64,000 bases of DNA, taken from assembly GCA_938034975.1 (NCBI GenBank), contig CALHNI010000001.1, positions 17,641 through 81,640 of the forward strand, read 5' to 3'. Positions 3,421 to 62,018 of the stretch are shown here, in pieces. Below the pieces are notes generated by a model, which worked only from the letters and a program-made list of their open reading frames with translations, searched no databases and was not told where the DNA came from. Source of the DNA: Candidatus Goldiibacteriota bacterium (GTDB lineage: Bacteria; Oederibacteriota; PGYV01; DYJU01). Each line of letters opens with the position of its first letter. The stretch's first letter is position 1. Made by a program: the position numbers and the translations under genes.

Positions 3421-3606
3421 CCGCTAAAACGCATTTTTACTGAAAATTTTTTTATCTATCTTATAATAAACTTTTATTTTTATAATGCATTTTTTTTTAT
3501 TCACTCGACTTTTTTAAAATAAAGCATTGGTATTGTTTTAAAATTTTATTTTTTTAATAATGTTTCCATCCTCTGTAAATCTCAATTTCCTATTGCGGTT
3601 TTCAGG
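3421..3606 (+). repeat. Dispersed double-hairpin element, copy 1
   Basis: CCGCTAAAACGCATTTTTACTG (collapsed hairpin A), TATAATGCAT...TATTCAC core, GTATTGTTTTAAA, hairpin B ending TTGCGGTTTTCAGG. Confidence 0.8.
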
Positions 3607-5062
3607 ATATGAATTTGAATTTATTTTTTCTAAAAATATTTAAGCATAACTTACTTATATCATTATCATAAAGAATTCCCTTATTTTTAATAATTTCATC
3701 CAGCGCCTTATTTATTCCGAGCGCCTTTCTATACGGTCTTTTAAATGTCATAGCCTCAATAACATCAGCAATGCCAATAATTTTTGCTTCTAACAGAATT
3801 TTATCTCCTTTAAGTCCGCGCGGATAACCGCTTCCATCTATCCTTTCATGATGCTGGTAAATAATCTCTGCAACAGGCCAGGGGAAATATATAGATTTTA
3901 AAATTTTATAACCCTCTTCAGAGTGAGTTTTTATTATTTCATATTCTTCTTTTGTAAGTTTTCTTGGTTTATTAAGTATGGAACCTGATATAAAAATCTT
4001 TCCTATATCATGAATTACAGCAGAAATATATATACATTCAATCTGTTCATCAGATAATCCATATTCCTTTGCAATAAATTTTGCAAGTTCAGCGGTTCTT
4101 CTCTGGTGTCCAACAGTATACTTATCTTTTTTCTCAACAAGCTTTTCCATTGCGGTTATAACCCCATCCATAATTTTTTTCATTATTAAAAAATTCTTTT
4201 CTATTTTATTCTGAAAATCTGTTCTTTCACTTATATTCCTTATTATAGATAAAACCACAGATTTATTATTGTATTTAAAAACATGAGAATTAACTTCACA
4301 GTTAATAATATCCCCATTACTCTTTTTTACCGGGACTTCAAAAATAGCTTTTTTATTTTCTCTTAATCTTTTTAAATACAGATTTATGATTTTTTTATTA
4401 AATTTCGCATAAAAATCAAAAGGGGTTTTTTTTAATATTTCATTTTTTGATAATCCCAATTGCTCACATGCGGCTTTGTTTACCTCAAAAAATTTACCGG
4501 GTTTTTTATTTTCAATTGTATGTAAAACAATCGCATCATTGGATTTATTAAAAATAGTTTTATATAATTCTTTTTCTGACACATTATCATTTTCTTCCAA
4601 ATATCTAATTGTTAACAATAGTGCAAAAGGTTCCTTATCCGCATTATTAACCCGCGCAATATTTACAAGTCCATAAAATTCTTTTTCTTTTTTTATAAAT
4701 TTGCTCCTAAAATTACCCACAAAACCTTCATTAAATGCTCTTTTAAAAATAGCTTTTATAATTTTCCTTTCATCTGGTAATACCAGGTCAAAAAATTTTC
4801 TTCCTTCCATACTTTTTTCATCCCAAAACCCAAATATTTGAGCTGCCTTATCCGAAGAAAACAATATGTCAAATCTTTTATCAATCATAATTATAGCATC
4901 ATTTGATGTCATTATAATTTTTTTATACATCTCTTCGGAATTTTTAAGTGAATTTTGAAGCGTTTTTATTTTTAAATTTAAATATTGATAATTAAGAAGG
5001 TTGGGATGAAAATCTTTGGATTCTTTGGAATTAAAAACCTGTGAGTATCTGTTTTTAGTCAA
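3602..5062 (-). CDS. PAS-PAS-HD-GYP c-di-GMP phosphodiesterase
   Basis: Two PAS domains; YTVGHQRR, HDIGKI, HHERIDGSGYP, RPYR. Confidence 0.93.
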   Translation of the reverse strand: MTKNRYSQVFNSKESKDFHPNLLNYQYLNLKIKTLQNSLKNSEEMYKKIIMTSNDAIIMIDKRFDILFSSDKAAQIFGFWDEKSMEGRKFFDLVLPDERKIIKAIFKRAFNEGFVGNFRSKFIKKEKEFYGLVNIARVNNADKEPFALLLTIRYLEENDNVSEKELYKTIFNKSNDAIVLHTIENKKPGKFFEVNKAACEQLGLSKNEILKKTPFDFYAKFNKKIINLYLKRLRENKKAIFEVPVKKSNGDIINCEVNSHVFKYNNKSVVLSIIRNISERTDFQNKIEKNFLIMKKIMDGVITAMEKLVEKKDKYTVGHQRRTAELAKFIAKEYGLSDEQIECIYISAVIHDIGKIFISGSILNKPRKLTKEEYEIIKTHSEEGYKILKSIYFPWPVAEIIYQHHERIDGSGYPRGLKGDKILLEAKIIGIADVIEAMTFKRPYRKALGINKALDEIIKNKGILYDNDISKLCLNIFRKNKFKFIS

Positions 5063-5149
5063 TCAAAGCTCCTCTTTAAATTTAGTCAAAAACTTTTAGG
5101 CATTCGTTTTTAATTATATAAAAAAAAAGTGAAAAGTAAAGATTTTTTT

Positions 5150-5326
5150 CCGTAAAAACTCGTTAGAAAACGCGTTTTTACGGAAAAACTAAATTTTTTA
5201 TTATATTTATTAATAAATTTTTATTTTTATAATACAGCCCTTTTATTCACCAGTTTTTTTAATAAAACTCAATTGTTGTTTTAAATTTACTTTTGAAAAT
5301 TGAAATCTTTTAATTCAATTTTTAGG
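5150..5326 (+). repeat. Dispersed double-hairpin element, copy 2
   Basis: CCGTAAAAACTCGTTAGAAAACGCGTTTTTACGG, TTTTATTCACC core, degenerate hairpin B. Confidence 0.88.
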
Positions 5327-5407
5327 TAAATTTTATTAACACGGCTAAGAAAATATTTTTTCATCTCAGAAAAACACAAATTTTATTATCATCTTTTATT
5401 TTTAAAT

Positions 5408-7845: not shown

Positions 7846-10287
7846 TTATTTTTTGTTTACAACCGGTATATTAAAATAAAAGGTTGAACCTGCCCCAGGT
7901 TCAGATTCAACCCATATTTTTCCATTATGAAGTTCAATAATTTTTTTACATATAGAAAGACCAATACCACTTCCAGGATATTCATCTTTTGTATGTAACC
8001 TTTTAAATAATTCAAATATTTTCTCATAATATTCTTTTGCGATACCAATACCATTGTCCTTGATAGAAAAAACTATTCCTTTACTTGTTTTCTTATATGA
8101 AATAGTTATAACAGGGGGCACTTCTTTTTTTGAAAAAATTAAGGCATTTGTTATTAAATTTTGAAAAACCTGTTCCATCAAAATCTCATTTCCCCAGAAA
8201 TCAGGTAATTTATCATAAATTATCTTCCCATTTTTTTTCTGAATCAGATAAGAAACATTGTCTATTACTTTTTTAACAATTTCTAAAGTATTTATAAGTT
8301 TAAATTCTCCGGCGGACCTTCCAATCCTTGAATAATCAAGAAGGGCTTTAATTAATTGTTGCATTCTATTTACGCCTTCAACAATAAATTTAATAAAATC
8401 ATCTGCATTTTTATCCAGTTTATCTTTATATCTTCTTTCCAAAAGTTGAACATAACTTGCTATCATTCTTAATGGCTCCTGCAGGTCATGCGATGTAATA
8501 TAAGCAAATTGTTCTAATTCAGTATTTGCCCTTTCTAATTCTTTAATTATCATTTTTAATTTTTCTTCTGTTTCTTTAATTGATGTAATATCAATAATTG
8601 TTATCAAATTCGCAATTTTGTTTGCATAAATTATTTTTTTAAAATTCATATCTATATATTTTATTTTTTTGGATTTTGTCAATATTCGTGTCTGGATATT
8701 GTATATTTCATCTTGTCTTAATTTATCAATATCATCCATATATAGTGCAGCCATCCTTTTCTCATCAGGATGAACCATATTTAAAAAATCCTTATTAGAA
8801 TAACTATATAAATCTTGTATACTAACTTCTAAAATATCGGAAATTGCATTATTGGCATATATTATTTTATTATCCTGATTTATAAGAATGCCATAATTTG
8901 CCTGCTCTGATAAAGTTTTAAATTTTTGTTCTGATTCTTTTAACAACATGTTAGCTTTTATTTTTTCAGTAACATCGCGCATCACACCTAACATTCTATA
9001 AACTTTATTATTGCTATCTGTTAAAAAAATACCCTCATCTTCTAAAAATATATAATTACCATTTTTATGTAAAAATCTATATTCTGCATTATATTTACCT
9101 TTTTCCCGATATGCTTTCTTTAATAATTCAATAACGTTTTTCCTGTCATCTGGATGTATCATTTCTTCCCATTTTTTGATATCAACTTTATTATTAAAAT
9201 ATTCAATTGGCCATCCGGTTATTTTTTCAATTGCACCACTCCAGTTAATTTTTCCTGTTTTCACATCATAGTCATAATTCATCAAACCTGTTTGATTAAT
9301 AAGAATATCATGTAATTTTTTAAATTCAATTAATTTGTTTTGAATTTCTTTTCTTGCAGTTATATCTCTTATTATTGAAAGAGCGACTTTTTTATTTTTT
9401 AAACGAAAAATTCGCGTATTTATTTCAACTGGTATTTTTTTTCCATATTTATTTACTATTTCAGTTTCATATATGCAGAATTTTTTTGTGTTAAGTTCAT
9501 GTCCTATCCTCGGGAAATCTTTTAAATATTCCGGAGTAACTATATCCTGGGGCTTTTTTTTCAACAATTGATTTTTATTAAATTTCAACAGTTGGATCGC
9601 CTTATTATTGGCATCTAAAAAATAATGAGCCCTGCCATCTCTTGTAAGTCCATTTATCATAACCATATCATTTGTGTTATTGAATATTTCCCTGTATTTT
9701 TTTTCGTTTTCTTCTAATTTTAATTGGATATTATAAAATTTAATTATATTGGTTATTATTTTGACAGTTTTTAATAAAAGCCGTTTTGAATTCTCATCTA
9801 AAAATGGCTTTAATTTTTGCTTTTTACATATATCAAAAGTCATTGACCCCATTGTTTTATCATTAGTACTTATTGGAATAAAAATTAAAGTTTCTATATC
9901 AAGATCTGTAAAAAATTTTTTTATTAAATTCCTTGTTTTCAGGTTTTTTATTTTCCCGGGAAAATTTTTTACCAATCTGTCTGTCTGGAAAATTTTATAC
10001 TTTTTTTTAAAAAAATATTTTATAATTTTATCCGGTAATTTATAATTTAAACTTGACTTTATTCCTTTATCTCGCCATTCTATTATACATTCATGGTATA
10101 AATCCCTGTATGCATTATACGAAACCCGGCCAAAATTAAATGTTTTCCCTATTAATTCAAAAATTTTTTTTATTACACGTTTTTCATTATTTTCTTTTAC
10201 AAAATTTATTCTGTATAATTTTGAAAATAGTTTTTCTGAAAAATTTCTCTCATTAATTTTATTTTTTATAATTATACCTTTTGCCAT
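7846..10287 (-). CDS. GAF-like/multi-PAS sensor histidine kinase (Cph1-type kinase core)
   Basis: ELEQFAYITSHDLQEPLR, QVFQNLITNA, DNGIGI, YPGSGIGLSICKK; three PAS/PAC units. Confidence 0.93.
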   Translation of the reverse strand: MAKGIIIKNKINERNFSEKLFSKLYRINFVKENNEKRVIKKIFELIGKTFNFGRVSYNAYRDLYHECIIEWRDKGIKSSLNYKLPDKIIKYFFKKKYKIFQTDRLVKNFPGKIKNLKTRNLIKKFFTDLDIETLIFIPISTNDKTMGSMTFDICKKQKLKPFLDENSKRLLLKTVKIITNIIKFYNIQLKLEENEKKYREIFNNTNDMVMINGLTRDGRAHYFLDANNKAIQLLKFNKNQLLKKKPQDIVTPEYLKDFPRIGHELNTKKFCIYETEIVNKYGKKIPVEINTRIFRLKNKKVALSIIRDITARKEIQNKLIEFKKLHDILINQTGLMNYDYDVKTGKINWSGAIEKITGWPIEYFNNKVDIKKWEEMIHPDDRKNVIELLKKAYREKGKYNAEYRFLHKNGNYIFLEDEGIFLTDSNNKVYRMLGVMRDVTEKIKANMLLKESEQKFKTLSEQANYGILINQDNKIIYANNAISDILEVSIQDLYSYSNKDFLNMVHPDEKRMAALYMDDIDKLRQDEIYNIQTRILTKSKKIKYIDMNFKKIIYANKIANLITIIDITSIKETEEKLKMIIKELERANTELEQFAYITSHDLQEPLRMIASYVQLLERRYKDKLDKNADDFIKFIVEGVNRMQQLIKALLDYSRIGRSAGEFKLINTLEIVKKVIDNVSYLIQKKNGKIIYDKLPDFWGNEILMEQVFQNLITNALIFSKKEVPPVITISYKKTSKGIVFSIKDNGIGIAKEYYEKIFELFKRLHTKDEYPGSGIGLSICKKIIELHNGKIWVESEPGAGSTFYFNIPVVNKK

Positions 10288-10363: not shown

Positions 10364-10575
10364 CCGTAAAAACGCGCCAGAAAACGCTTTTTTTAGAAAA
10401 AACAAATTTTTTTATTATTTTTATTTAATAAATTTTTATTTATTAAACACATTAATTTTATTCACCTTTTTTTTTAATTTAAAATAAAACATAAGGTTTT
10501 GTTTTAAAAATTTTATTTGTTTAATAATTTTCTTTGTGTTTTTTCTCCTTACAATTTATCATTGCTTTTTTAAGG
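10364..10575 (+). repeat. Dispersed double-hairpin element, copy 3
   Basis: CCGTAAAAACGCGCCAGAAAACGCTTTTTTTAG, TTTTATTCACC, AAAATAAAAC, TTGTTTTAAA. Confidence 0.85.
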
Positions 10576-10624: not shown

Positions 10625-11296
10625 TTATTCCCAGGATCCGAAAGCGCCAGCTCCAAAATTTTCAACCTTGCTTATTTTTCTATTTTTAATTTTAAATAAT
10701 AATATAATAAAAAATAAAATAAAAATACTAATTATTATATAAAATGATTTAGTAAATTTTATAAATTTATTTTTGTCCCTACCCCCTGTTTTCTTTATAA
10801 ATTCCATAATACCTTCGTATATACCTCTGCTGTATTCTTCATTTTTAAAACAAGGTATTATTTTATTATCTATTACCGAAGATAATATTGAGATAATATT
10901 AACAGGTATTTGTTCTCCATATTCATAATGTAATTTCCTGTCATTTAGCGCAATAAAAAACAAAATTGCTTTCTGCTTGTCTAAAAATTTTATCCTTTCT
11001 GAATTAAATAATTCTTTCACATACTCTTGAATAACCATTTCATCCTGCACATAATCTTTTAATGAATTTATTACAATTACTTTGATCTCAATATTTTGCA
11101 TTTTATTAAATTTTATTAATAATTCTTCAAGAGATTTTTTATCTGTTTCTTTTAATATTTTTGCAAGGTCATTGATATGTTCATCTTTAATTTCAATTCC
11201 CCTGGCATTTAATATAATATTGATAAATATAAGAAGCAACATGAATCGTAAAATTTTACGAAAAAACGAAATATTTTTATTATTTTTATAACGCAT
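10625..11296 (-). CDS. TPM-domain membrane protein (N-terminus lies within repeat copy 4)
   Basis: INDLAKIL, EIKVIVINSL, ILFFIALNDRKL, C-terminal TM and FGAGAFGSW. Confidence 0.8.
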   Translation of the reverse strand: MRYKNNKNISFFRKILRFMLLLIFINIILNARGIEIKDEHINDLAKILKETDKKSLEELLIKFNKMQNIEIKVIVINSLKDYVQDEMVIQEYVKELFNSERIKFLDKQKAILFFIALNDRKLHYEYGEQIPVNIISILSSVIDNKIIPCFKNEEYSRGIYEGIMEFIKKTGGRDKNKFIKFTKSFYIIISIFILFFIILLFKIKNRKISKVENFGAGAFGSWE

Positions 11297-11377
11297 TACT
11301 TTTATTCACCCGTTTTTTAATTTAAAATAAAACTCAAGTATTGTTTTAAATATTTTATTTCTTTAATAATATTTTTC
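11246..11377 (+). repeat. Dispersed element, copy 4 (hairpin A reduced, hairpin B absent)
   Basis: Palindrome TCGTAAAATTTTACGA, then TATAACGCATTACTTTTATTCACC, AAAATAAAAC, GTATTGTTTTAAATATTTTATT. Confidence 0.85.
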
Positions 11378-24612: not shown

Positions 24613-24614
24613 GC

Positions 24615-33034: not shown

Positions 33035-33238
33035 CCGTAAAAACGCATTAAAAATCGCGTTTTTTACAAAAAAACAAAATATTTTTATTATTTTTATTTA
33101 AATTATAATGCATTATTTTATTCACCCATTTTTTATTTTTAAAAAAAACAAGTGTTGTTTTGAATATTTTATTTTTTTAAATAATATATAATTTTTTTCT
33201 TCTGAAAATCGAAATCTTCTTATAATGCGATTTTCAGG
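33035..33238 (+). repeat. Dispersed double-hairpin element, copy 5
   Basis: CCGTAAAAACGCATTAAAAATCGCGTTTTTTAC; TATAATGCATTATTTTATTCACC; CTGAAAATCG...TGCGATTTTCAGG. Confidence 0.9.
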
Positions 33239-34540: not shown

Positions 34541-34791
34541 TTTGAAAATTACAATAGAAAATTGCGCTTTTCATGAGAAAATATTAAACAAACAAAATAA
34601 ATTAAATATTTAAAACAACACTTATGTTTTATTTTAAATTAAAAAACTGGTGAATAAGTGTAATAAAAATGCTAAAATTTTTTGATGTTAAAAAGGAGTG
34701 AATAAAGGTAATGTATAACAAAAAATGGGAAATTATTAAATAAAAATATTATTTCCCATAAAAACGCTTTTTTCTAAAACGTTTTTACTGG
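34541..34791 (-). repeat. Dispersed double-hairpin element, copy 6 (internal partial duplication)
   Basis: Reverse orientation: TTTAAAACAACAC, two GTGAATAA cores, CATAAAAACGC...GTTTTTACTGG. Confidence 0.82.
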
Positions 34792-37799: not shown

Positions 37800-38023
37800 C
37801 CGTAAAAACGTATTAGAAAATGCGTTTTTACGAAAAAACATACTACTTTTATTATATTTATTTAATAAAATTTCATTTTTATAATTCATTGTTTTTTTCA
37901 CCATTTAATTTTAAAAATTAGTACACTTTTAAAATTTTTATTTATTTATTTATTTATTTATAAACCTTTTTTATATTTTCTTTTTTCCTCTGAAAAATCG
38001 CAAACTTTAAATGCAATTTTCAG
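37800..38023 (+). repeat. Dispersed double-hairpin element, copy 7
   Basis: CCGTAAAAACGTATTAGAAAATGCGTTTTTACG; TTCACC; CTGAAAAATCGCA...TGCAATTTTCAG. Confidence 0.9.
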
Positions 38024-42713: not shown

Positions 42714-43022
42714 CTGTAAAAACACATTAAAAATTTTTTTCACGAAAAAACAAGGATATTTTTATAATGCATTATTTTTATTATGCCGTTTTTTTAATTT
42801 AAAATAAAACAAAGCAAGAGTTTATTTAAGCGTTAGAAAAAGCGTTTTTACGGAAATATAAAATATTTCTGCCTTTTTGGTTTAATAATTTTTTATTTTT
42901 ATAGTAAATTACTTTAATTCACCTGTTTTTTTAATTTTAAAAACAAGTTCACTCTTAAAACTATTATTTATTTATTTATAATATATTTCTTTTGAAAATA
43001 AATAGTAAATTGCGATTTTCAG
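42714..43022 (+). repeat. Two tandem partial copies (8 and 9) of the dispersed element
   Basis: CTGTAAAAACAC...TATAATGCATTA...AAAATAAAAC, then GCGTTAGAAAAAGCGTTTTTACGG...TTCACCTG...TTGCGATTTTCAG. Confidence 0.85.
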
Positions 43023-45670: not shown

Positions 45671-45799
45671 TTTAAATCATCTCCTTTATTTTTTTATTAT
45701 TTTAATATTAAAAAAAATTTTTTTCAATAAAAAAAAGTTTGACCTTGTCTTTTTTTTAATTTAAAATAATAACAAATTAAAACAGGAGGTCTTTTAATA

Positions 45800-46346: not shown

Positions 46347-46557
46347 CCGAAAAACGCATTAGCGTTTTTCAAGAAAAAAAGGGATATAAAAAAGTTTATA
46401 AACAAATAAGAATTTTATTTGAAAGTGTACTTATTTTTTAAATTAAAAAACAGGTGAATTAAAGTAATGCATTATAAAAATAAAAAATTATCAAACAAAA
46501 AAAAACAAAAATATTTTATATTTCCGTAAAAACGCATTAGAAAATGCGTTTTTACGG
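46347..46557 (-). repeat. Dispersed double-hairpin element, copy 10 (perfect hairpin A)
   Basis: 46524-46557 CCGTAAAAACGCATT-AGAA-AATGCGTTTTTACGG (15-bp perfect stem); CAGGTGAATTAAAGTAATGCATTA core; A-like hairpin at the other end. Confidence 0.92.
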
Positions 46558-49481: not shown

Positions 49482-49658
49482 CCTTAAAATAACAATAAAA
49501 ATTTGCGATTTTCAGAAAAAATACAAAAAAAATATTATCAAATAAAACAACACTTGTTTTTTTTATTAAAAAACGGATAAAAAAAAGTAATACTTTATAA
49601 AAATAAAAATATTTTGTTTTTCTTTAAAAACGCATTTTCTAATAATGCGTTTTTACGG
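49482..49658 (-). repeat. Dispersed double-hairpin element, copy 11
   Basis: TTGCGATTTTCAG, AAAACAACAC, TAAAAACGCATTTTCTAATAATGCGTTTTTACGG. Confidence 0.88.
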
Positions 49659-51966: not shown

Positions 51967-54900
51967 ATGAAAAAAATTCCTTTAATTTTTTATTTTTGTT
52001 TTTTTACATTTTTTTGCTTTAGCCAAAACCTGATTAAAAATGGTGATTTTGAACTTGATGAAAATAAGGATAATATTCCGGATAACTGGGTAATAGATGA
52101 TCCTAATAACATAAAACTTTTTACAGAAGACAATAATAAATTTATAAAAATTTCAAACAGTTCTCCAAAATATACAGGACTTTCCCAGTATATTCTCATA
52201 GAACCTAACAAATTAAAATCAATTCTTGTAAAAGCAAAAATCAAATTAAACAATGTAATCAAAGGAAGTGAAGATTGGGCTTATGCGCGTGTGCTTGTTC
52301 TTTTTTTTGATAAAAATGGTAATCAGGTTGGTGGCTGGCCTGAACTTGGAAGATGGTTAGGGACTTTTGACTGGTCAGAAAAAATAAATATATTAAATGT
52401 TCCGTCAGATGCAAGAACAATAAAAGTAGAAATTCAGCTATCAAATTGCACCGGCGATATGTCAATTGATGATTTATCCATAGAAAAAGGTATCTCTTTT
52501 AATATTCCTTCTGAACCGGAAAATCTTATCATAAATGGTGATATGGAATATGGCTCTAATTTGCCGCTATACTGGGGTGGTTGGATTTCAGGTAAAAGCA
52601 CTTTTATAAGTCCAGGATATAATTCCCCTTCTTCTTTTATGATAGAAAATGAAAATCCAGGATATTCAATGATAACTCAGAAAATTCCTGTTGATTCATC
52701 AATTATCAAGAGTATAAGAATTTCAGGATATTTAAAAACTGAAAATGTGGAACAAGGTTTAAATCCATGGGAAAAAGCAAGAATAGGTGTTGAATTCCAT
52801 GATGAAAAAGAAAGAATCGGAGACTGGCCGCCTGTTGTTGGTGAATTAACAGGGACTGAAAATAATTGGGTTGAATTTTCCCGCGAATATTCCCTGCCCA
52901 ATGGAACTAAATCAATAGTTATCAGTGCAGGCCTTTTAAATTGTAAAGGAAAAATTTTTATTGATAAAATAAAAGCCATGGGTTTTGACAAAAATGGAAA
53001 ATTGGTAAAATCCAATCTAATTAAAGAAGAAGATAAATCTAATTGGTTTGCATTTGAAAGTAAAAAAGATGATTTTTTAGATAATGCAATTATTGACTTT
53101 ACTAATGAACTTGATAAACCCGCAGGTAAACATGGATTTATAACCGTTAATAAAAAAGGCGAACTTGTATTTGAAGATGGTGAAAAAGCAAAATTTTTCG
53201 GCACTAATTTAGTTAATGGTGACATTTTCAGAAGTTATGAAGAGATTGATAAAATGGTAAAGCGCCTTGCCAAACTTGGAGTTAATATGATAAGGTTACA
53301 TCATATGGACGCATATTGGGGAGAACCAAACATCTTTGATAAAACAAAAGATAACACACGTAATTTTTCAGAAGATTCTTTAAATAAACTTGATTATCTT
53401 ATTTATAAATTAAAAGAAGCAGGTATTTATATTTTCCTTGATTTACTTGTTCATCGCAAATTAAAAAAAGATGACGGGGTTGATAATTTTGAAAAAATAC
53501 CAGCTGGTTTTAAAGAAGTAATTTTTATTGATGAAAATCTTCAAGGATTAACCAAAGAATATATAAAAAACCTTTTAGAACATGAAAACATATACACAAA
53601 AATCAAATACAAAGATGAACCGTCAATAATCTTTATGGAAATTATCAATGAAAGTTCATTATTTTACTGGGACAGGAATTCTGAAATTCCTTCTTTTTAT
53701 ACTGATAAATTGAATAAACTTTTCAATGAATATTTAAAAAACAAATATCAAACTATGGAAAATCTAAAAAGAGAATGGGATAAATTCGGTGATAATAATT
53801 TAAGTAAAGAAGAAGATTTTAATAAAAATACGGTTAAAAGGGAAATTTTTAAAATAAATTGGGAAAATCCAATGTATTTTGCAAAGGCAAATTCAACCGG
53901 AAGGGCTGCTGATACAAAATTATTTTATTTTGAATTAGAAAAAAAAATGTATGATGATTTTTATAATTTTATTAAATCAATTGGAGCAAAAGCACTTATA
54001 ACCGGCAGTAATCATTGGGAATTATGGGATGCGGATATTTTAGTAAATAGCAAATATGATTTTATTGACAGGCATTCATATTGGGACCATCCATCCGGTG
54101 GCTGGACACTTCAGGAAAATATTTCATTTTTAAATAAACCTTTTTTAAAATCAAAATACAATTGCATATCCGAACTGGCACATACAAGAGTTTTTGAAAA
54201 ACCATTTACTGTCAGCGAATGGAATTTTTTAATGCCCAATGAATTCAGAGCCGGCGCACCTGTTATAATGGCATCCTATGGTAAATTTCAGGGCTGGGAT
54301 GCACTTTTGCAGTTTAATTTTTCTCATTACGAATGGAAAGATAAGTTAACTGCTTTTTGCGATTTTTCATCTTCTCCTGATATGCTTTCTTTCTGGTTTC
54401 CTGCTATAATGATTTTCAGATACAATTATATAAAAGAAAGCAAAGAATATATTACTGAATATATATCAGAAGATGATATTTTTTATAATAAAGAAACTTC
54501 TTTTAAATTTATAAATAATGACATTGCCATTCCAAATTTAATAAAAATTGCAAAGGTGTTTGATAAGGATAAAGAAAACAAAAAATTTTTCCCTTCTTTA
54601 AAAAAAGATGCTGCGCTTTCTTTAAACGGAGAGTTGTATTTAAATTACAAAAAAGGTATTTTTCAGATAAACTCTGATAAAATCCAGGGTGCAATTGGTT
54701 TTTTAAAAAACAGTAATTTAAAATTTAAAAATTTTAAACTAACCTGTTCTAATAATTATGCCGCTATCATGTTAACTTCTCTTGATAAAACACCGATTTT
54801 AAAATCACAAAAAATCATTTTAACCACATCTGCCAGAGTTGAAAACTCGGATATGAAATTTAATCCTGCTCATACTTCTATAATTTATGGTGGTAATTCA

Positions 54901-55098
54901 CCTGTTATATTAGAACCTGTTGTCGCAACTTTGAGTTTAAATGTTTCTAAATTTAAAAATGTAAAAATTTTTATATTAGATGAAAATAATTATATCAAAG
55001 AAGAATACAAAAATTTTAAAATTGTTGAAAATACAATAAAAATTATTTTAGATGAAAAATCAAAAGCATTTAATTACTTTATAAATATTGAAAGATAA
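51967..55098 (+). CDS. Secreted clan GH-A (GH5-like) glycoside hydrolase with two N-terminal CBM4/9-like domains
   Basis: NLIKNGDFE and NLIINGDME domains; PAGKHGF, GVNMIRLHH, INE acid/base, VSEWN nucleophile. Confidence 0.8.
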   Translation: MKKIPLIFYFCFFTFFCFSQNLIKNGDFELDENKDNIPDNWVIDDPNNIKLFTEDNNKFIKISNSSPKYTGLSQYILIEPNKLKSILVKAKIKLNNVIKGSEDWAYARVLVLFFDKNGNQVGGWPELGRWLGTFDWSEKINILNVPSDARTIKVEIQLSNCTGDMSIDDLSIEKGISFNIPSEPENLIINGDMEYGSNLPLYWGGWISGKSTFISPGYNSPSSFMIENENPGYSMITQKIPVDSSIIKSIRISGYLKTENVEQGLNPWEKARIGVEFHDEKERIGDWPPVVGELTGTENNWVEFSREYSLPNGTKSIVISAGLLNCKGKIFIDKIKAMGFDKNGKLVKSNLIKEEDKSNWFAFESKKDDFLDNAIIDFTNELDKPAGKHGFITVNKKGELVFEDGEKAKFFGTNLVNGDIFRSYEEIDKMVKRLAKLGVNMIRLHHMDAYWGEPNIFDKTKDNTRNFSEDSLNKLDYLIYKLKEAGIYIFLDLLVHRKLKKDDGVDNFEKIPAGFKEVIFIDENLQGLTKEYIKNLLEHENIYTKIKYKDEPSIIFMEIINESSLFYWDRNSEIPSFYTDKLNKLFNEYLKNKYQTMENLKREWDKFGDNNLSKEEDFNKNTVKREIFKINWENPMYFAKANSTGRAADTKLFYFELEKKMYDDFYNFIKSIGAKALITGSNHWELWDADILVNSKYDFIDRHSYWDHPSGGWTLQENISFLNKPFLKSKYNCISELAHTRVFEKPFTVSEWNFLMPNEFRAGAPVIMASYGKFQGWDALLQFNFSHYEWKDKLTAFCDFSSSPDMLSFWFPAIMIFRYNYIKESKEYITEYISEDDIFYNKETSFKFINNDIAIPNLIKIAKVFDKDKENKKFFPSLKKDAALSLNGELYLNYKKGIFQINSDKIQGAIGFLKNSNLKFKNFKLTCSNNYAAIMLTSLDKTPILKSQKIILTTSARVENSDMKFNPAHTSIIYGGNSPVILEPVVATLSLNVSKFKNVKIFILDENNYIKEEYKNFKIVENTIKIILDEKSKAFNYFINIER

Positions 55099-56049: not shown

Positions 56050-59000
56050 TTATTTAATTATTGCTACTTTTAAAATTTCCATTGTGCTTTCAATTTTTAT
56101 TCTTATTATATAAACACCTGCTGCAACTTTTTTACCGGCATCATTTTTTCCATCCCATGCTATATCATCATCTATGGAAACCTTTTCTATCATTTTTACA
56201 AGTTTTCCGTTTCTGGTATAAATCATTATTTTCCCTTCTTTGCCTTTATATCTTTCAGGTATTCTGATTTTAACAATCTCATTTTTAGATATATTTATTA
56301 AATTTTTATTTAGCATTAATTTATCAACAGGCAATTGTGTAGGAGTAATTGTAGGTGTTTCTGTTATTGTTGGTGTATTACTTATTGTATGAGTATTTGT
56401 AACTGTATGTGTATGTGTAAAAGTAAATGTATTTGTAAATGTTGGCGTGTTACTCGGTGTTAATGTAATTGTATTTGTCGCAGTATCAGTATGTGTCCAT
56501 GTAGGTGGTTGAGAACCTGTCACTGTCTCTGTTGGGGTTGTTGTTGATGTATCAGTTGGCGTATTTGTTGCTGTATTTGTTACTGTGTGCGTTAATGTAT
56601 CAGTTTGGGTGTTTGTCGCTGTATCAGTTGGAGTATTTGTCGTTGTATCCGTTGGCGTAAATGTTTCAGTTGGCGTATTTGTTAATGTATCTGTTACTGT
56701 GTAAGTGTAAGTATAAGTCAATGTAAATGTTTTTGAAGGTGTAAAGGTATATGTATAAGTAAATGTCTTTGTTGGTGTGTCAGTAAAGGTATTAGTTATA
56801 GTATAAGTATTTGTTGGTGTATCTGTCCACCACGTGCCGGTTGGTGTTTCAGTAGGAGTGCCAGTTATAGTAGGTGTAGGTGTAATTGTAGAAGTTGCAA
56901 CATAAACTATCCATGAATATCCTGTGGAATACAAATTATTTTGATTATCCCTCACATCTATTGATATCTGAGCAACATTACCAGGAGTTCTTGCTGCCAT
57001 AGGTAATCTGAATTTATATCTTCTTTCATTTAGACCTGTATCAATATGATCAATGTCAACTGCTGCATTTCCACTAATAAAAATATCTGGTTCACCTTGT
57101 AACCCGGAACCTAAAATTTTATCTGATATTGTAAAATACAAATACTCATTGGCAGGATCAACAATTACTCCTTGATTTGCAGGATTTAAATATCCAACAT
57201 ATGGATTATATTTGTCTTTTGTCGGATTAATACTTAAATTTAAATCCTGATTTGTCCTGTTTCCACCATTTACTAAAACAGGCAATTCTGCTTCATTAAA
57301 GAAATAGCCGGATGACTTTACCAAGTAATTACCATTTTCTATAAAATTACCTGTTATATATGCTGTTTCACCGTTAGCAAAATCATAAAATTTTAATACT
57401 CCAGCACCAATATCTTTTAAAACCCATACATTCGCTCTTGTCATTATCTCATCTAAAGTTTTTCCTGCAAAATATTGATTCCCTGATATTGAATAACCTG
57501 AATTTATATTTATAACTGTTGATGCTGTTCCTGTTACAACATCATATGCTCTACCTAAAAATAATGGAGCTCCACCTTCCATTGTATTTCCATCAAGAGC
57601 AACAAGGTCATAATACATAAATTGCGAAGGGACACCTACAATAAAATTACCACTTGCTGAACTTTGACCCATATATAAATAAGCATTATCACTCTGAATA
57701 TTTGCAGTGCCTGAAACAACCGCAGCAATAATGACACCTGATAAATCCGGATACATACCGGTATTATCAATTATCTGCCCTGAAATTGTTGTATTAATGT
57801 TTGGTCCTGTAAAATTAACAACTTTATTTCCATTTACATTTACATTTCTTACTGGTTCCCAGTATGAAGGACCTGAACCAGCAAAAAAGTCAAAAATCCC
57901 GGTTGGAACATGTCTTATTTCATAATTGTTCCCCGAAGTATCTGTCCTATAATAGTTGCCCAAAGGACTATTTTCTCCAAATTTAGTTCCACCTGGCAAT
58001 TGTATTTTAACCTCAGAACTATAAAATGGTGCCGGATTTAGAGTACCATTTACAGTCCATCCAGATTCAATTGCGAAGTTAAGTTGGGTTGTAATTCCGT
58101 CTCTGACATTTATATTCTCTTTAAAAGCAATTGCATGATTTGCTTCTGTCCAGATATTTGTCCCTGTTTGTTTTGCATATACAAAATAATTACCTGGTTC
58201 TAAATTGTGTATTGCATAACTTGCATTTACATTATTACAATTTCCCGCCCAATCACCATCCACATATGGATCAATAACAATAACATCAACATTATTTAAT
58301 AATGCTCCTGTAATATTCCCTGAAATTATTCCTTCTTTATATACATCAAAATTATCTACTAATTTAACTTCACCGCCAAAAGAAATAATAATAGGTGTAT
58401 CAAATTTTTTTGTTGTTTTCCCATAAGCCCAGTCAGGTGCACAGGAAGGATACCACCATCTTACCGCACGCAAGGTTGTAATTGGCACATTTACAGGAAC
58501 TCTTACCTGATAACTACCCATACCATCTGTCAAAGCAGAATTTATAAAATTATTTTGATATGTCCTTGCCTCAATATTCACATTAGAAAGACCACTTGAA
58601 TTTACTCCTATCAGATTTATATTTCCTGATATTAAACCAGAATCAACTATCTCAATTGTAAGATAATAGGGTTTAGAAGAAGATGAATTGTTATAGCTTC
58701 TTACTCTTATCAAGTAATTCCAATCTTCTTCAGTATGCGATGACATATCAACATAAATAACCGCTGTTTTTCCACCATTAGCACCTTTTGAATTTTTAAA
58801 ATTCCATCCACCAAGCATACTTGCTTCATATACTTCCAAATTATAGTAAAATGAACCTTGTGGCACTTGTAAAGTTATTTTTAGCATATCATGATTTGGA
58901 TTATTATGCGCATTTAAAACAGTAAATTTATAGTAATCATTATCACTTTGATCTGCAATATATCCTATTCCTGTTTTATTTAAATAATTTGGTATTGTCG

Positions 59001-61794
59001 CTGCCTGTCCTTCTGTATCATTGATACCCCGTGATGTTGGTGGTTCTGATGGCATTAAATTTTCTTCATACCAATCTGCAATTGGTGTTCCGGAAGGAGT
59101 CGGAGTTGGTGTTGGAGCAGAGATTAAATATAACTGGAAGTTAAATACATTATTAGGTCCTGAAATATTTGCATTTGGAAAAGGCGGCGGTAAAAATGGT
59201 CCAGAACCACCACCATAATAACCAAAATAATCGCCTTCATTCGGTCCATTCATAATTCCATCTCCACTTTCATCAACAAATCCATATATATAATAAGTAC
59301 CATCGGGCGCACCTGTTGAATATTGAAACTGAGCTGGTCCATTTGTTGTTCCAAAATAAATTGCTACCCATCCATTGCTACCATCTGTATCAGTATCTAT
59401 TACAACTGCACATTCTTTCCCATTTGAAGGTGCTGGCAAACTCACAGTTCCAAACACATTAAGCGGATATGTCTGAGTTGGTGTTGGTGTTGCCGTTGAT
59501 GTAGCAGTACTTGTTGGTGTATTTGTCCACCATGTGCCAGTTGGTGTAGGAGTTGGCGTTGCAGTGCTGGAATAAATATTTACAGTCCAATTGGTAGTTT
59601 GATACTGATTGCCTTTATAATCTGTTAAACTTATTGATATATTATGAGAAGTTCCTGGTATTCTTTGTGAAGTAGGTAATCTGAACTGGTATCTTAATGT
59701 ATTATTTTCCAAAGATTGCCCGGACATATCTTCTACAGGCACACTATCAGAAAAAATTGAAACAAATTGCAATCCACTTCCTAATAATTTATCACTAACA
59801 GTTACATATAAATAATCATCAGCATAAATATAACCATTATTTGCCGGATTTAATTGCCCTGCCCATGGTTTAAATAGATCTCTGTTTATATCTATTGTAA
59901 AATTTATATCCTGCCCTGTTAAAGGATTCCCATTTACCATTACATTTTTTTCAATTTTATTAAAAAATGTATCAAAACCAACTATTTTATAATTCCCATT
60001 TTCTATGTGATTTGCTGTCTGATAGTTATCATTTCCAAAACCCATATCATAAAATTTATATGAACCTAAACCAGTATCCTTTAAAATATAACATCCAGCG
60101 TTGTGTATTCTATAATAACTTAAAGGATTACTAAAAAAATAAAAATTACCTGATATATAATATCCACTGTTTATATAAATATTAGCTGGAATCATACTAC
60201 CTGGATTAACATCATAAGTTCTTCCAACAAAATATGGCGGACCATTTTGTGATTTTGATATATCCACTGCTGCTAAATCATACAAATATCCTGACGGAAC
60301 CGGCATCATAAAATTTCCTGAAGAATTACACATACCTACATATGCTAAAATATCAGACATAACATCTGTTGTTCCTGATATAACTGCATAAACAGCAATA
60401 ATAGATTTATCCGGATATTCTCCGGTATTATCAATAACCTGCCCAGAAATAACACTATTTAGCGCTGGTCCTGTAAAATTAATAGGTGAAATAGGTGGAG
60501 TATTTAAAACAGGATTCCACATAGAAGGTCCTTCTGCTTCTACTCTATAATCAAGCATTATTCCTGCTGGTAAATTTCTTATTTGAAAAGTATTTCCTGA
60601 AACATCAACTTTATAATATTCTGAAAAAGGTTCAAAACTTCTTGTTCCATCAGATTTAGGTAAACCAGCTGGTTTTACATAAACTCTTACTCCTGATACT
60701 GGAGAAGGATTTAATGAACCATTAACATTTACGCCAGAACCAATGTTATAATCTATAAGAGTTGTAAATCCATCTTTAACATTAACATTCGGAGTCCAGC
60801 TTATTGGTTGAGCTGCCTGCATACAATTATAAGTCCCTGTTTGTTTTGCCCACATCCAGTAATTTCCAGCTTCTAAATTATGTATTTCATAATTAAAATT
60901 TACATTTGTACAATTTCCTGCCCAATCACCAGTATAAGGATCTATTACTGCTATATCAACATTGTTAAGCGCAGATATATTACCTGCAATAACACCTTCT
61001 TTATATACATCAAAATTAATATTACTAACAACCTGCCCTGGATTTGTTAAAATAATCGGACTGGTAAATTTTTTTGTTGTTCTTCCATAAGCCCAGTCAG
61101 GTGAACAGGAAGGATACCACCATCTGATTGCTACTAAACTGGTAATTTCAACACTAACTGGAACTTTTATAGAATAGTGTCCTGACAAATTTGTTATTCC
61201 AGAATTAATATAATTATTTTTACTTCTTGCCTCAATGTTTACATCTGAAAAACTTCCCATTGCACCTATTAAATTAATCTGCCCCTGTATATAACCACTA
61301 TCAACCACTTCTATTTTTAAATAATATGGGTTTGCCGTGCTGCTGTTCCAATCAGCATGAACCTGAATTACATATAACCAGTCATTCTCCGATCTATTTG
61401 AAATATCAACATATGTAGTTGAAGTTAATTTATTATAAGAACTAATTTCAGTTTTATTATTATACCCACCAGCACCATCATCTTCATATATTATTAATCT
61501 ATAACCTGTATTTTCAGGAGCACATAAAGAAACTTTTAAAATATCATGATCAGGATTATTTTCAGAATTAGGAATAATTATTTTATAATAATCATTATCT
61601 GAAATATCGGCAATAAATCCTGTGCCTTCTGAATAAGGTAAAGAATAATTTCCCAAATCAGCAGCAGTTGTAAATGAATCATTTAAGCCTTTCTGGTTGG
61701 GTTGTTCACTTGGAATAAGTTCACTTTCTGTCCATCCAAAAAGAGAAATAGAAAAAAAAGTAAATAAGATAAAAATTTTTATGCTTAATTTCAT
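56050..61794 (-). CDS. 1914-aa secreted protein: duplicated ~720-aa beta-rich module, Thr-rich tracts, T9SS-like/FlgD-Ig CTD
   Basis: Signal peptide; two homologous modules (RWWYPSCxPDWAYGxTTKKF in both); CTD IYTRNGKLV...WDGKND.G...AAGVYII. Confidence 0.85.
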   Translation of the reverse strand: MKLSIKIFILFTFFSISLFGWTESELIPSEQPNQKGLNDSFTTAADLGNYSLPYSEGTGFIADISDNDYYKIIIPNSENNPDHDILKVSLCAPENTGYRLIIYEDDGAGGYNNKTEISSYNKLTSTTYVDISNRSENDWLYVIQVHADWNSSTANPYYLKIEVVDSGYIQGQINLIGAMGSFSDVNIEARSKNNYINSGITNLSGHYSIKVPVSVEITSLVAIRWWYPSCSPDWAYGRTTKKFTSPIILTNPGQVVSNINFDVYKEGVIAGNISALNNVDIAVIDPYTGDWAGNCTNVNFNYEIHNLEAGNYWMWAKQTGTYNCMQAAQPISWTPNVNVKDGFTTLIDYNIGSGVNVNGSLNPSPVSGVRVYVKPAGLPKSDGTRSFEPFSEYYKVDVSGNTFQIRNLPAGIMLDYRVEAEGPSMWNPVLNTPPISPINFTGPALNSVISGQVIDNTGEYPDKSIIAVYAVISGTTDVMSDILAYVGMCNSSGNFMMPVPSGYLYDLAAVDISKSQNGPPYFVGRTYDVNPGSMIPANIYINSGYYISGNFYFFSNPLSYYRIHNAGCYILKDTGLGSYKFYDMGFGNDNYQTANHIENGNYKIVGFDTFFNKIEKNVMVNGNPLTGQDINFTIDINRDLFKPWAGQLNPANNGYIYADDYLYVTVSDKLLGSGLQFVSIFSDSVPVEDMSGQSLENNTLRYQFRLPTSQRIPGTSHNISISLTDYKGNQYQTTNWTVNIYSSTATPTPTPTGTWWTNTPTSTATSTATPTPTQTYPLNVFGTVSLPAPSNGKECAVVIDTDTDGSNGWVAIYFGTTNGPAQFQYSTGAPDGTYYIYGFVDESGDGIMNGPNEGDYFGYYGGGSGPFLPPPFPNANISGPNNVFNFQLYLISAPTPTPTPSGTPIADWYEENLMPSEPPTSRGINDTEGQAATIPNYLNKTGIGYIADQSDNDYYKFTVLNAHNNPNHDMLKITLQVPQGSFYYNLEVYEASMLGGWNFKNSKGANGGKTAVIYVDMSSHTEEDWNYLIRVRSYNNSSSSKPYYLTIEIVDSGLISGNINLIGVNSSGLSNVNIEARTYQNNFINSALTDGMGSYQVRVPVNVPITTLRAVRWWYPSCAPDWAYGKTTKKFDTPIIISFGGEVKLVDNFDVYKEGIISGNITGALLNNVDVIVIDPYVDGDWAGNCNNVNASYAIHNLEPGNYFVYAKQTGTNIWTEANHAIAFKENINVRDGITTQLNFAIESGWTVNGTLNPAPFYSSEVKIQLPGGTKFGENSPLGNYYRTDTSGNNYEIRHVPTGIFDFFAGSGPSYWEPVRNVNVNGNKVVNFTGPNINTTISGQIIDNTGMYPDLSGVIIAAVVSGTANIQSDNAYLYMGQSSASGNFIVGVPSQFMYYDLVALDGNTMEGGAPLFLGRAYDVVTGTASTVININSGYSISGNQYFAGKTLDEIMTRANVWVLKDIGAGVLKFYDFANGETAYITGNFIENGNYLVKSSGYFFNEAELPVLVNGGNRTNQDLNLSINPTKDKYNPYVGYLNPANQGVIVDPANEYLYFTISDKILGSGLQGEPDIFISGNAAVDIDHIDTGLNERRYKFRLPMAARTPGNVAQISIDVRDNQNNLYSTGYSWIVYVATSTITPTPTITGTPTETPTGTWWTDTPTNTYTITNTFTDTPTKTFTYTYTFTPSKTFTLTYTYTYTVTDTLTNTPTETFTPTDTTTNTPTDTATNTQTDTLTHTVTNTATNTPTDTSTTTPTETVTGSQPPTWTHTDTATNTITLTPSNTPTFTNTFTFTHTHTVTNTHTISNTPTITETPTITPTQLPVDKLMLNKNLINISKNEIVKIRIPERYKGKEGKIMIYTRNGKLVKMIEKVSIDDDIAWDGKNDAGKKVAAGVYIIRIKIESTMEILKVAIIK

Positions 61795-61826
61795 AACTAC
61801 CTCCTAAAATTTAAATTTCGTTATTA

Positions 61827-61854
61827 ATTATAGCACAAAAAAAATTTATGTCAA
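61827..61854 (-). promoter_or_regulatory. Consensus sigma70 promoter TTGACA-16-TATAAT with extended -10 TG
   Basis: Perfect hexamers upstream of the AGGAGG RBS of the 1914-aa gene. Confidence 0.75.
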
Positions 61855-61883
61855 CTTTTTAATTTTTTTATGTTAATATTTAA

Positions 61884-62018
61884 CCAGAAAATTGCAACAG
61901 AAAATTGCGATTTTCTGGAGAAAAAACACAAAAAAGATATATTATTAAAAAAAATAAAATATTTAAAACAACAGTTGATCTTTATTTTAAATAAAAATAA
62001 CAAGTGGTTTAAAATATG
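61884..62018 (-). repeat. Dispersed element, copy 12 (hairpin B half only)
   Basis: CCAGAAAATTGCA...TTGCGATTTTCTGG, AAAATATTTAAAACAACA, TTTATTTTAAA. Confidence 0.8.

What the first reader, a model, noticed from the sequence alone, without database searches (positions are those of the whole stretch)
3421..62018. Dense family of ~200-bp intergenic elements bounded by two related hairpins (about 12 copies in 64 kb)
Seen: copies at 3421-3606, 5150-5326, 10364-10575, 11246-11377, 33035-33238, 34541-34791(-), 37800-38023, 42714-43022 (two), 46347-46557(-), 49482-49658(-) and 61884-62018(-). They share one layout: hairpin A (CCGTAAAAACGC-loop-GCGTTTTTACGG), an AT-rich spacer, TATAATGCATTA, TTTATTCACC, AAAATAAAAC, GTGTTGTTTTAAA, then hairpin B (CTGAAAATCGCA-loop-TGCGATTTTCAG). 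The A and B stems are related (CYG(T)AAAAWCGCA). Copies are strongly diverged, yet the hairpins mostly persist, and they fill most of the larger intergenic gaps. I saw no conserved target duplication. Established: two similar subterminal hairpins without a TSD are typical of HUH-nuclease elements (IS200/IS605-derived PATEs, RAYT-mobilised REPINs). Inference: an undescribed non-autonomous mobile element or structured regulatory module, possibly with hundreds of copies genome-wide if this density holds.
Basis: partly seen in the sequence, partly recalled or inferred. Interest (0 to 1): 0.85.

Follow-up and report, generated by a model that had tools for sequence, protein, structure and literature searches.

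The report
Hairpin-ended miniature transposon family, IS1380-linked

Summary
All 12 listed copies align to one 220-position model. The 1.93-Mb, 84%-complete assembly holds 311 matches, or 255 merged loci covering 2.3% of the assembly and 22% of intergenic bases. The ends are sharp.

An exact 5-bp direct repeat flanks 37 of 143 full-length copies, against 1.8 expected from shuffled pairing. The two ends are inverted repeats of each other, and each end is also a 34-bp palindrome. Removing three nested copies with one repeat copy restores a contiguous host element. The same-genus genome lacks the family and has a short orthologous spacer.

The only transposase family found is IS1380. Y1/RAYT, TnpB, rve and Tn3 gave nothing. 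The resident 1625-bp IS has ends matching the element's ends at 11-13 of 17 positions. IS1380 elements make 4-5-bp duplications (PMC12116815). Chimeras join the hairpins to IS pieces.

Verdict: this is a new family of a known kind, a DDE-type MITE. It is old, with copies 88-93% identical to their consensus. The HUH/REPIN reading is rejected.

The parts
3423..3606 (+). MITE copy, nearly full length (model 15-220); its 5' hairpin is decayed
   Evidence: nhmmer E 6e-24; sequence read
5150..5326 (+). Full-length MITE copy (model 1-220)
   Evidence: nhmmer E 9.5e-28; sequence read
10364..10575 (+). Full-length MITE copy; flanks TTTAG/TTTGG match at 4 of 5 bases
   Evidence: nhmmer E 2.7e-30; flanks
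11254..11376 (+). Truncated MITE copy (model 27-170) without hairpin B
   Evidence: nhmmer E 7.4e-23
33035..33238 (+). Full-length type I MITE copy; both terminal hairpins fold
   Evidence: nhmmer E 8.6e-33; DNA fold -25.9 kcal/mol, z -2.7
34543..34790 (-). Rearranged MITE copy, hit as two pieces (model 80-218 and 1-121) with an internal duplication
   Evidence: nhmmer E 1.8e-17 and 7.8e-11; alignment
37800..38023 (+). Full-length MITE copy with an exact 5-bp duplication AAATA
   Evidence: nhmmer E 6.2e-30; flanks
42714..42813 (+). 5' part of a MITE copy (model 1-130), next to the following copy
   Evidence: nhmmer E 1.5e-8; the orthologous spacer in same-genus genome G001 is 116 bp and lacks it
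42829..43022 (+). MITE copy (model 10-219) with a type II-like interior
   Evidence: nhmmer E 7.5e-28; absent from the orthologous G001 spacer
46347..46557 (-). Full-length type II MITE copy between convergent genes
   Evidence: nhmmer E 9.6e-37; DNA fold -35.9 kcal/mol, z -7.5, with 15-bp and 9-bp terminal hairpins
49482..49658 (-). Full-length MITE copy in a divergent promoter region
   Evidence: nhmmer E 1.5e-23
61884..62015 (-). 3' part of a MITE copy (model 92-220)
   Evidence: nhmmer E 1.1e-17

Best explanation
[quoted passage not shown] Each terminus is a 34-bp palindrome made of two inverted copies of a roughly 12-17-nt terminal repeat (CCKKAAAAWCGC...), so both outer edges present the same sequence, read inward. 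The elements were mobilised in trans by a DDE transposase of the IS1380 family. A 1625-bp IS of that family lies in the same genome and has closely related ends. Insertion goes into AT-rich 5-bp targets (roughly T-W-W-W-A) in intergenic DNA and duplicates them. Two subfamilies amplified after the split from the sister species. Copies have since decayed mostly neutrally, and the only IS copy assembled end to end is now a pseudogene. Shown here: the family itself, its sharp ends, the terminal inverted repeats, the 5-bp TSD, nested insertions, lineage restriction, the presence of an IS1380-family IS, and the similarity of its ends to the MITE ends. Inferred: that this particular transposase did the moving, that the palindromic ends are needed for transposition, and that the orientation bias reflects effects on transcription. 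The confidence given is for the whole statement; that the repeats are a DDE-type MITE with a 5-bp TSD I hold at about 0.9.
For: Family and ends. There are 311 nhmmer hits, 146 of them full length, with a median length of 205 bp. Per-column identity steps up and down exactly at CC...GG.

Terminal repeats. The 5' end is CCGTAAAAACGCATTAG. The reverse complement of the 3' end is CCTGAAAAACGCATTAG in type II and CCTGAAAATCGC... in type I.

Target duplication. An exact 5-bp flank duplication is found at 37 of 143 copies, against a shuffled-pair mean of 1.76 and a maximum of 7 in 1000 shuffles. With canonical CC..GG ends the count is 23 of 64 against 1.1. The share of exact TSDs is 14 of 45 in type II and 15 of 78 in type I. 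That is about what decay would leave in copies 93% and 88% identical to their consensus. The TSD is 6% GC, with T at position 1 in 27 of 37 and A at position 5 in 25 of 37.

Nested insertions. Deleting C15:16185-16398 and one TSD copy restores a host element matching model positions 2-220 (E 9e-29). Two further cases, at C10:35905 and C19:54524, behave the same way.

Lineage restriction. No full-length match was found in 40 relatives. The hairpin pattern gave 0 hits in the same-genus genome G001 and three other genomes. The window spacer 42689-43045, which holds two copies, corresponds to a 116-bp spacer without them in G001.

Transposase. NF033539 (IS1380) hits C55:23725-24922 at 190.5 bits, plus fragments at contig ends. 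An intact 438-aa homologue in G001 scores 286 bits and matches PF13701. PF01797, PF00665, PF07282 and PF01526 gave 0 hits, and PF01609 gave one weak hit.

IS ends. IRR is CCCTAAAATCGCGATAA and IRL is CCTTAACTCCGCAATAG. They match the MITE ends at 11-13 of 17 positions in terminal register. Only 21-347 of 200,000 random genome 17-mers do as well.

Published IS1380 properties. The family makes 4-5-bp direct repeats (PMC12116815, passages read). IS1247 is 1672 bp with a 5-bp direct repeat (PMC3281130, table read).

Chimeras. Three loci (C51:354, C53:7065, C64:13952) share the same junction of a MITE-type hairpin to IS position 594, but have different sequence beyond the hairpin. Four loci carry the IRL-terminal 169 bp of the IS, and in two of them it abuts hairpin A of a MITE.
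Against: The MITE interior has no detectable similarity to the IS (best nhmmer E 0.06). The link therefore rests on about 17 terminal bases, the TSD length, co-occurrence and the chimeras.

The one IS copy assembled end to end (C55:23462-25086) has a broken transposase gene and no TSD. The other copies run off contig ends, so an intact driver is not shown.

The assembly is 84% complete. Another transposase could lie in the unassembled part.

No copy is more than 96% identical to its subfamily consensus, so current activity is not shown.

The chimeras can also be read as MITE insertions into an IS followed by deletion.

Only 26% of copies keep an exact TSD. I attribute the remainder to decay, but this is inferred.
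Confidence: 0.7

Rival explanations
1. One reading: a non-autonomous element moved by an HUH (Y1) nuclease. This would be an IS200/IS605-derived PATE or a RAYT-mobilised REPIN, recognised through its subterminal DNA hairpins and inserted without target duplication.
For: Each end is a strong hairpin. The DNA folds have z-scores of -7.5 and -2.7. The assembly holds 205 intact hairpins. The density in intergenic DNA resembles that of REP/REPIN families.
Against: A 5-bp target-site duplication is present. The outermost bases form terminal inverted repeats, with no conserved target tetra- or pentanucleotide beside one end. Neither PF01797 (Y1_Tnp, which includes RAYTs) nor PF07282 (TnpB) was found in the assembly, although the same searches hit 6 and 8 of 14 control genomes. 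The assembly is 84% complete, so absence is not proven.
Confidence: 0.03
2. A DDE-type MITE, as in the best explanation, but mobilised by a different transposase that is missing from this incomplete assembly. On this view the likeness to the IS1380 ends is coincidental or convergent.
For: There is no interior similarity between the MITE and the IS. End identity is only 11-13 of 17. The IS copy assembled end to end is a pseudogene. About 16% of the genome is unassembled, and 22 of 132 contig ends break in MITE copies.
Against: IS1380 is the only transposase family found among six searched. The TSD length fits that family. The likeness is in exact terminal register for both IS ends and for all four MITE end consensuses. 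Hairpin-to-IS chimeras exist in several copies.
Confidence: 0.15
3. The copies are kept by the host as intergenic regulatory or structural modules, for example promoter, terminator, insulator or nucleoid-protein sites. On this view mobility is only how they arrived, and their hairpins and inner blocks are under selection at each locus.
For: Orientation is biased between co-directional genes: 54 copies are antisense and 24 sense (binomial p 0.0009). Copies are enriched in divergent spacers, at 24 of 112 copies against 77 of 1483 spacers. The inner blocks, which include a TATAAT, are conserved across both subfamilies. IS1380 members are known to carry outward promoters (PMC9330008, passages read).
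Against: Hairpin A shows 162 broken cells against 16 compensated ones, which is no better than shuffles (mean 8.7, maximum 19). The excess in hairpin B is almost entirely one pair that differs between subfamilies. Promoter-like sites number 120 against 110 +/- 12 in shuffles, and terminator-like sites 7 against 7.0 +/- 2.9. The sister species manages the same spacer without the element. The orientation bias cannot be separated from a strand or replication bias, because 1390 of 1549 ORFs share the strand favoured by GC skew.
Confidence: 0.12

Closest known systems
Bacterial MITEs derived from DDE insertion sequences, for example Correia elements of Neisseria and the MaeMITE families of Microcystis aeruginosa
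   Same: Both are small (about 200 bp), non-coding and bounded by terminal inverted repeats with a short target-site duplication. Both are intergenic, present in hundreds of copies, and make up about 2% of the genome. Microcystis has 517 copies at 1.8% (PMC2779907, passages read). MITEs are said to reach 'up to 2%' of a bacterial genome (PMC3281130, passage read).
   Different: Here each terminus is itself a 34-bp palindrome of two back-to-back terminal repeats, the TSD is 5 bp, and the associated IS belongs to the IS1380 family. Correia elements have a TA duplication and 26-bp repeats, which I recall rather than checked here. No sequence similarity to anything in Rfam, in the plasmid or phage collections, or in 40 relatives was found.
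IS1380-family insertion sequences (ISEcp1/ISEc9, ISPme1, IS1247)
   Same: The resident 1625-bp IS encodes a transposase matching NF033539 and PF13701. The 5-bp duplication of the MITE fits the family's 4-5 bp. The ends begin with CC, as the ISEc9 inverted repeat quoted in PMC12116815 does when read inward. The family is known to use imperfect surrogate ends and so to move foreign DNA (PMC9330008, passages read). That would help it adopt MITE ends that are only 11-13 of 17 identical.
   Different: The transposase is only about 25% identical to annotated IS1380 members on plasmids. The MITE has no interior similarity to the IS. I found no paper in the held library that describes an IS1380-derived MITE (searches; the passages read do not link the two). 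ISfinder could not be consulted.
REP/REPIN elements with RAYT, and IS200/IS605-derived PATEs
   Same: All are abundant intergenic repeats whose most obvious feature is a pair of related hairpins.
   Different: Those elements have no target duplication and depend on a Y1 HUH transposase. Here a 5-bp TSD is present and no Y1 gene was found.

Membership tests
MITE (DDE-type, non-autonomous) | Short (under about 600 bp) and without coding capacity | tested here: met
   The median length of the 144 full-length copies is 205 bp, with a range of 138-241. They lie in gaps between ORFs: 128 of 146 overlap an ORF of 100 aa or more by 30 bp or less.
MITE (DDE-type, non-autonomous) | Terminal inverted repeats at sharp ends | tested here: met
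   The 5' end CCGTAAAAACGCATTAG matches the reverse complement of the 3' end, CCTGAAAAACGCATTAG, at 15 of 17 positions in type II. Identity steps up and down at exactly these ends.
MITE (DDE-type, non-autonomous) | Target-site duplication of fixed length | tested here: met
   An exact 5-bp repeat flanks 37 of 143 copies, against 1.76 expected and a maximum of 7 in 1000 shuffles.
MITE (DDE-type, non-autonomous) | Evidence of insertion (empty sites) | tested here: met
   Three nested copies can be removed to leave a contiguous host element. The orthologous spacer in G001 lacks the two window copies, but it has diverged too far to show a precise empty site. The test for population polymorphism could not be run.
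MITE (DDE-type, non-autonomous) | An autonomous partner with the same ends in the same or a related genome | tested here: inconclusive
   An IS1380-family IS with related ends (11-13 of 17) is present. The assembled copy is broken, and the interior is unrelated to the MITE.
IS1380-family derivative | 4-5-bp direct repeats | tested here: met
   The duplication is 5 bp. The family value comes from PMC12116815 and PMC3281130.
IS1380-family derivative | Ends recognised by an IS1380-family transposase | not testable with these tools
   Only sequence likeness and the chimeras are available. A binding or transposition assay is needed.
REPIN / RAYT system | A RAYT (Y1 HUH) gene flanked by the repeats | tested here: not met
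   PF01797 gave 0 matches in the 84%-complete assembly and hit 6 of 14 control genomes.
REPIN / RAYT system and IS200/IS605 PATEs | No target-site duplication | tested here: not met
   A 5-bp TSD is present.
IS200/IS605 PATEs | TnpA(Y1) and/or TnpB partner element | tested here: not met
   PF01797 and PF07282 both gave 0 matches.
Any Rfam RNA family | A match at the gathering score | tested here: not met
   There were 0 matches in the 64-kb window on either strand.

The most novel reading that the evidence does not exclude
An IS1380-family transposase has spawned a high-density MITE whose termini are each a back-to-back pair of its binding sites, forming a palindrome. Because either arm can serve as an end, a hairpin can pair with an IS end or with another hairpin. 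That would explain the hairpin-to-IS 'tail' and 'head' chimeras that exist in several copies. If so, this would be the first described IS1380-derived MITE and a natural case of the family's loose end recognition building new mobile units. The 70:30 orientation bias would mean that surviving copies are filtered by, or recruited for, effects on transcription of neighbouring genes.
Probability: 0.25. Interest if true: 0.6.

Novelty: new member of a known kind. Interest (0 to 1): 0.4.

Why it matters
The finding shows that about 22% of the intergenic DNA of an uncultured marine bacterium with a small genome is a single decayed transposon family. That matters for annotating such genomes and for their assembly, since 22 of 132 contig ends stop in a copy. 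It also matters for any search for regulatory motifs or structured RNAs, because the hairpins would otherwise be mistaken for terminators or riboswitch-like elements. The report adds a likely MITE partner to the IS1380 family. That family is best known for moving resistance genes through sloppy end recognition, and I found no MITE attributed to it in the searched literature. The burst is specific to one species of the genus, which gives a dated, natural example of MITE amplification followed by decay.

Tried and rejected
Rfam at gathering thresholds gave no match in the window.

Multi-copy ORFs were screened as candidate transposases. All-against-all blastp of 1952 ORFs of 100 aa or more found only a PD40-repeat lipoprotein pair and low-complexity frames.

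The 229-aa transposase fragment found nothing in genome contigs. The IS-end pattern and the hairpin pattern each found nothing in metagenome contigs.

Promoter and terminator scans were not above shuffled sequence. Two of the 7 terminator-like sites are hairpin A of MITE copies followed by T-rich flank.

Solo 34-bp hairpins were tested as 'nano-MITEs'. There are 21 solo hairpins and only 1 has a 5-bp repeat, so the idea was rejected.

I tried to separate the orientation bias from a replication-strand bias using GC skew. This failed because the skew follows the coding strand.

No RNA holder was listed among the sequencing runs. The 4 holders are DNA runs from marine metagenomes of one study, and one of them may be the source of this assembly.

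Plasmid and phage collections have no match to the element.

Supplementary files of the papers were not consulted, and lists of MITEs in them might bear on the novelty claim. ISfinder could not be searched.
Full report
**Observation.** The window is 22-36% GC and lies on contig C1 of a 1.93-Mb assembly of 66 contigs, 83.7% complete. A profile built from them found 291 matches in the genome, 144 of them full length. A second profile built from those 144 found 311 matches at E<1e-3: 146 full length, 95 with only the 5' part, 60 with only the 3' part, and 10 internal. Some short matches are the palindromic hairpins read on the other strand.

Merged, the matches form 255 loci and 44,301 bp. That is 2.3% of the assembly and 22% of the bases between ORFs of 100 aa or more. 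Of 297 gaps of 200 bp or more, 162 hold at least 50 bp of the element. In the window the figure is 10 of 13 gaps of 150 bp or more. The element also ends 22 of 132 contig ends, so the true copy number is higher.

**Ends and duplication.** I aligned the 144 full-length copies with 30 bp of flank. Per-column identity is about 0.45 in the flanks, rises to about 0.9 exactly at CCGTAAAAACGC, and falls again after TTTTCAGG. The outermost 17 bases of the two ends are inverted repeats of each other. Each end is in addition a 34-bp palindrome, so the terminal repeat occurs twice, back to back, at each end.

I compared the last five bases before each copy with the first five after it. They are identical in 37 of 143 copies. 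Pairing upstream flanks with downstream flanks of other copies gives 1.76 on average and never more than 7 in 1000 trials. For copies with canonical CC..GG ends the count is 23 of 64 against 1.1. Frames of 4 or 7 bases show no excess. A frame of 6 gives 13 of 143, which I attribute to chance extension of the repeat by one base. The duplicated sites are 6% GC, with T first in 27 of 37 and A last in 25 of 37.

Copies are 88% (type I, n=78) and 93% (type II, n=45) identical to their subfamily consensus, and 21 copies fit neither type. Ten flank positions would then survive unchanged in roughly 28% and 48% of copies. The observed shares of exact duplications are 19% and 31%. This fits a duplication made at every insertion and since eroded.

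**Mobility.** In three cases, deleting a copy together with one copy of its 5-bp repeat joins the flanks into a contiguous element. For C15:16185-16398 the restored host matches model positions 2-220 at E 9e-29. A fourth case, seen by eye, is a type II copy sitting inside hairpin B of another element with the duplication TGCGA.

The family is restricted to this lineage. In 40 relatives only short AT-rich pieces match. The hairpin pattern has no match in the same-genus genome G001 or in three genomes of the order. G001 is syntenic with window 38070-45709 at 77-81% identity. The 356-bp window spacer that holds two copies corresponds there to 116 bp without them, while the promoter-proximal part of the spacer is conserved. 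That spacer has diverged too far to show a precise empty site.

One exact match to the hairpin elsewhere was found. It is a type II copy (E 1.8e-41) at the end of a 3.2-kb, 26%-GC contig filed in a MAG labelled Candidatus Calidifonticultor daggyaiensis (Actinomycetota). The rest of that contig encodes a PLD/SNF2 helicase with no match in this assembly. Given its composition I suspect a mis-binned contig from a relative of this organism.

**The transposase.** A duplication of 5 bp and ends beginning with CC suggested the IS1380 family to me from memory, so I searched for it. NF033539 (IS1380 transposase) matches C55:23725-24922 at 190.5 bits, with a stop and frame changes, and matches fragments at three contig ends and two inner sites. 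Y1/RAYT, rve, TnpB and Tn3 families have no match, and PF01609 has one weak match.

G001 and G013 carry intact homologues that are 54% identical. The G001 protein has 438 aa, scores 286 bits on NF033539 and matches PF13701. It is about 25% identical to annotated IS1380-family genes on plasmids. G013:C422 is a 1616-bp contig that is the IS and nothing else, which defines the ends.

By comparison with G013:C422, the IS in this genome spans C55:23462-25086 (1625 bp). Its IRR is CCCTAAAATCGCGATAA and its IRL is CCTTAACTCCGCAATAG. The same IRR with other flanks sits at C36:400 and C64:22921, both running off contig ends, and in diverged form at C64:14495 and C65:26160.

These ends match the four MITE end consensuses at 11-13 of 17 positions in terminal register. 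Only 21 to 347 of 200,000 random 17-mers from the genome reach the same score. Published members of the family make 4-5-bp repeats (PMC12116815, passages read). IS1247 is 1672 bp with a 5-bp repeat (PMC3281130, table read).

In G001 the right end of the IS is itself a hairpin, formed by the terminal 11 bases and an inverted copy 31 nt further in. The palindromic termini of the MITE may therefore be inherited from this clade of IS.

**Chimeras.** A BLAST of the IS against the genome shows two recurrent partial forms. In three loci a MITE-type hairpin is joined at the same point to IS position 594, followed by the IS tail down to the IRR. The loci are C51:354-385, C53:7065-7098 and C64:13952-13986. 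The sequence beyond the hairpin differs in all three.

Four loci carry the IRL-terminal 169 bp of the IS, starting at position 1457-1479: C5:33032-33200 (98% identical), C49:9374-9534, C49:3-140 and C23:56795-56953. In C5 and C23 the inner break abuts hairpin A of a MITE.

The simplest reading is that hairpins landed in an IS copy, and that hairpin plus IS end were then copied as units. That would require one transposase to accept both kinds of end. Insertion followed by deletion and duplication cannot be excluded. The C64 copy, which is 85% identical to the IS, has no surviving duplication.

**What argues against the IS1380 link.** The interior of the MITE has no similarity to any of the three IS sequences (best E 0.06). 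The only IS copy assembled end to end is a pseudogene without a surviving duplication. The assembly is incomplete. No copy of the MITE is close enough to its consensus to show current activity.

**Function at the insertion sites.** Of 146 full-length copies, 128 overlap an ORF by 30 bp or less. For the 112 of these with an ORF on both sides, I scored the context in the frame of the element. Fifty-four lie between co-directional genes in antisense orientation and 24 in sense orientation. Another 24 lie between divergent genes and 10 between convergent genes. The 54:24 split has a binomial p of 0.0009. Divergent spacers are over-represented, at 21% of copies against 5% of spacers.

I could not separate the orientation bias from a strand bias of insertion, because GC skew follows the coding strand in this genome.

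Selection on the hairpins at individual loci is not visible. In hairpin A, 162 cells are broken and 16 compensated, against a shuffle mean of 8.7 and a maximum of 19. In hairpin B the excess of compensated cells (73 against 31) comes almost entirely from one pair, which is T-A in type I (83 copies) and A-T in type II (43 copies). The palindrome was therefore kept in the lineages that multiplied and then left to decay, as expected if it serves transposition.

Promoter-like and terminator-like sites are no more frequent than in shuffled sequence. No RNA data were available.

**Comparison and novelty.** The element meets the defining features of a DDE-type MITE. It fails those of REPINs and IS200/IS605 derivatives. 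Its density is like that of the classic cases: Microcystis has 517 copies at 1.8% of the genome (PMC2779907, passages read).

Four things are particular to this family: the palindromic termini, the likely IS1380 partner, the restriction to one species of a genus, and the recurrent hairpin-to-IS chimeras. Two full-text searches for IS1380 together with MITE terms returned 8 and 10 papers. In the passages I read from four of them, none attributes a MITE to this family. A review notes the family's outward promoters and its use of imperfect surrogate ends (PMC9330008, passages read). I could not consult ISfinder or the papers' supplements.

I rate the element a new member of a known kind, of moderate interest.

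Noticed in passing
G000 contig C55:23462-25086 (outside the window): A 1625-bp IS1380-family insertion sequence with a broken transposase gene (a stop and frame changes; the longest ORF is 229 aa). Further copies of its right end run off contig ends at C36:1-400, C64:22921-23280 and C51:1-353, so the IS is multi-copy and collapsed in the assembly.
   Followed up: yes
G000 C51:354-385, C53:7065-7098, C64:13952-13986; C5:33032-33200, C23:56795-56953, C49:3-140 and 9374-9534: Recurrent chimeras of two kinds. In one, a MITE-type hairpin is joined to IS position 594 (the tail plus IRR). In the other, the IRL-terminal 169 bp of the IS breaks at position 1457-1479, and in two loci this break abuts hairpin A. 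At C49:9374 the piece follows the first 21 codons of an ORF whose continuation is not evident.
   Followed up: partly
L039 (JACVJA010000310.1, 3179 bp): A 26%-GC contig with a type II copy at its end and a PLD/SNF2-helicase ORF is filed in a MAG labelled as an actinomycete (Candidatus Calidifonticultor daggyaiensis). It looks mis-binned, and it is the only other record found to hold the element.
   Followed up: partly
L038 (G001:C7), last 40 bases of the contig: In the sister species the contig ends in the right end of its own IS1380-family element, just upstream of the orthologue of the 1499-aa gene. In this window that same spacer (37727-38176) holds a MITE copy. G001 and G013 each have only about three IS ends and no MITE burst.
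   Followed up: partly
window 22660-23375, 23901-24614, 25617-26032: Three gaps of 400-700 bp contain no ORF of 100 aa or more, no MITE and no Rfam match. Their content was not examined.
   Followed up: no
G000 C16:5202-7027: Four MITE copies, in two adjacent pairs, flank a 306-aa PD40/TolB-like repeat lipoprotein gene. A near-identical N-terminal copy of that gene sits at the end of C55, next to the IS.
   Followed up: no
window 38177-42676, 51967-55098 and 56050-61794: Very large ORFs of 1499 aa (with a DUF11-type repeat), 1043 aa and 1914 aa. The 1043-aa ORF had no NCBIfam match at E 1e-10 or below, and the 1914-aa ORF was not scanned. Several PAS-domain histidine kinases lie nearby.
   Followed up: no
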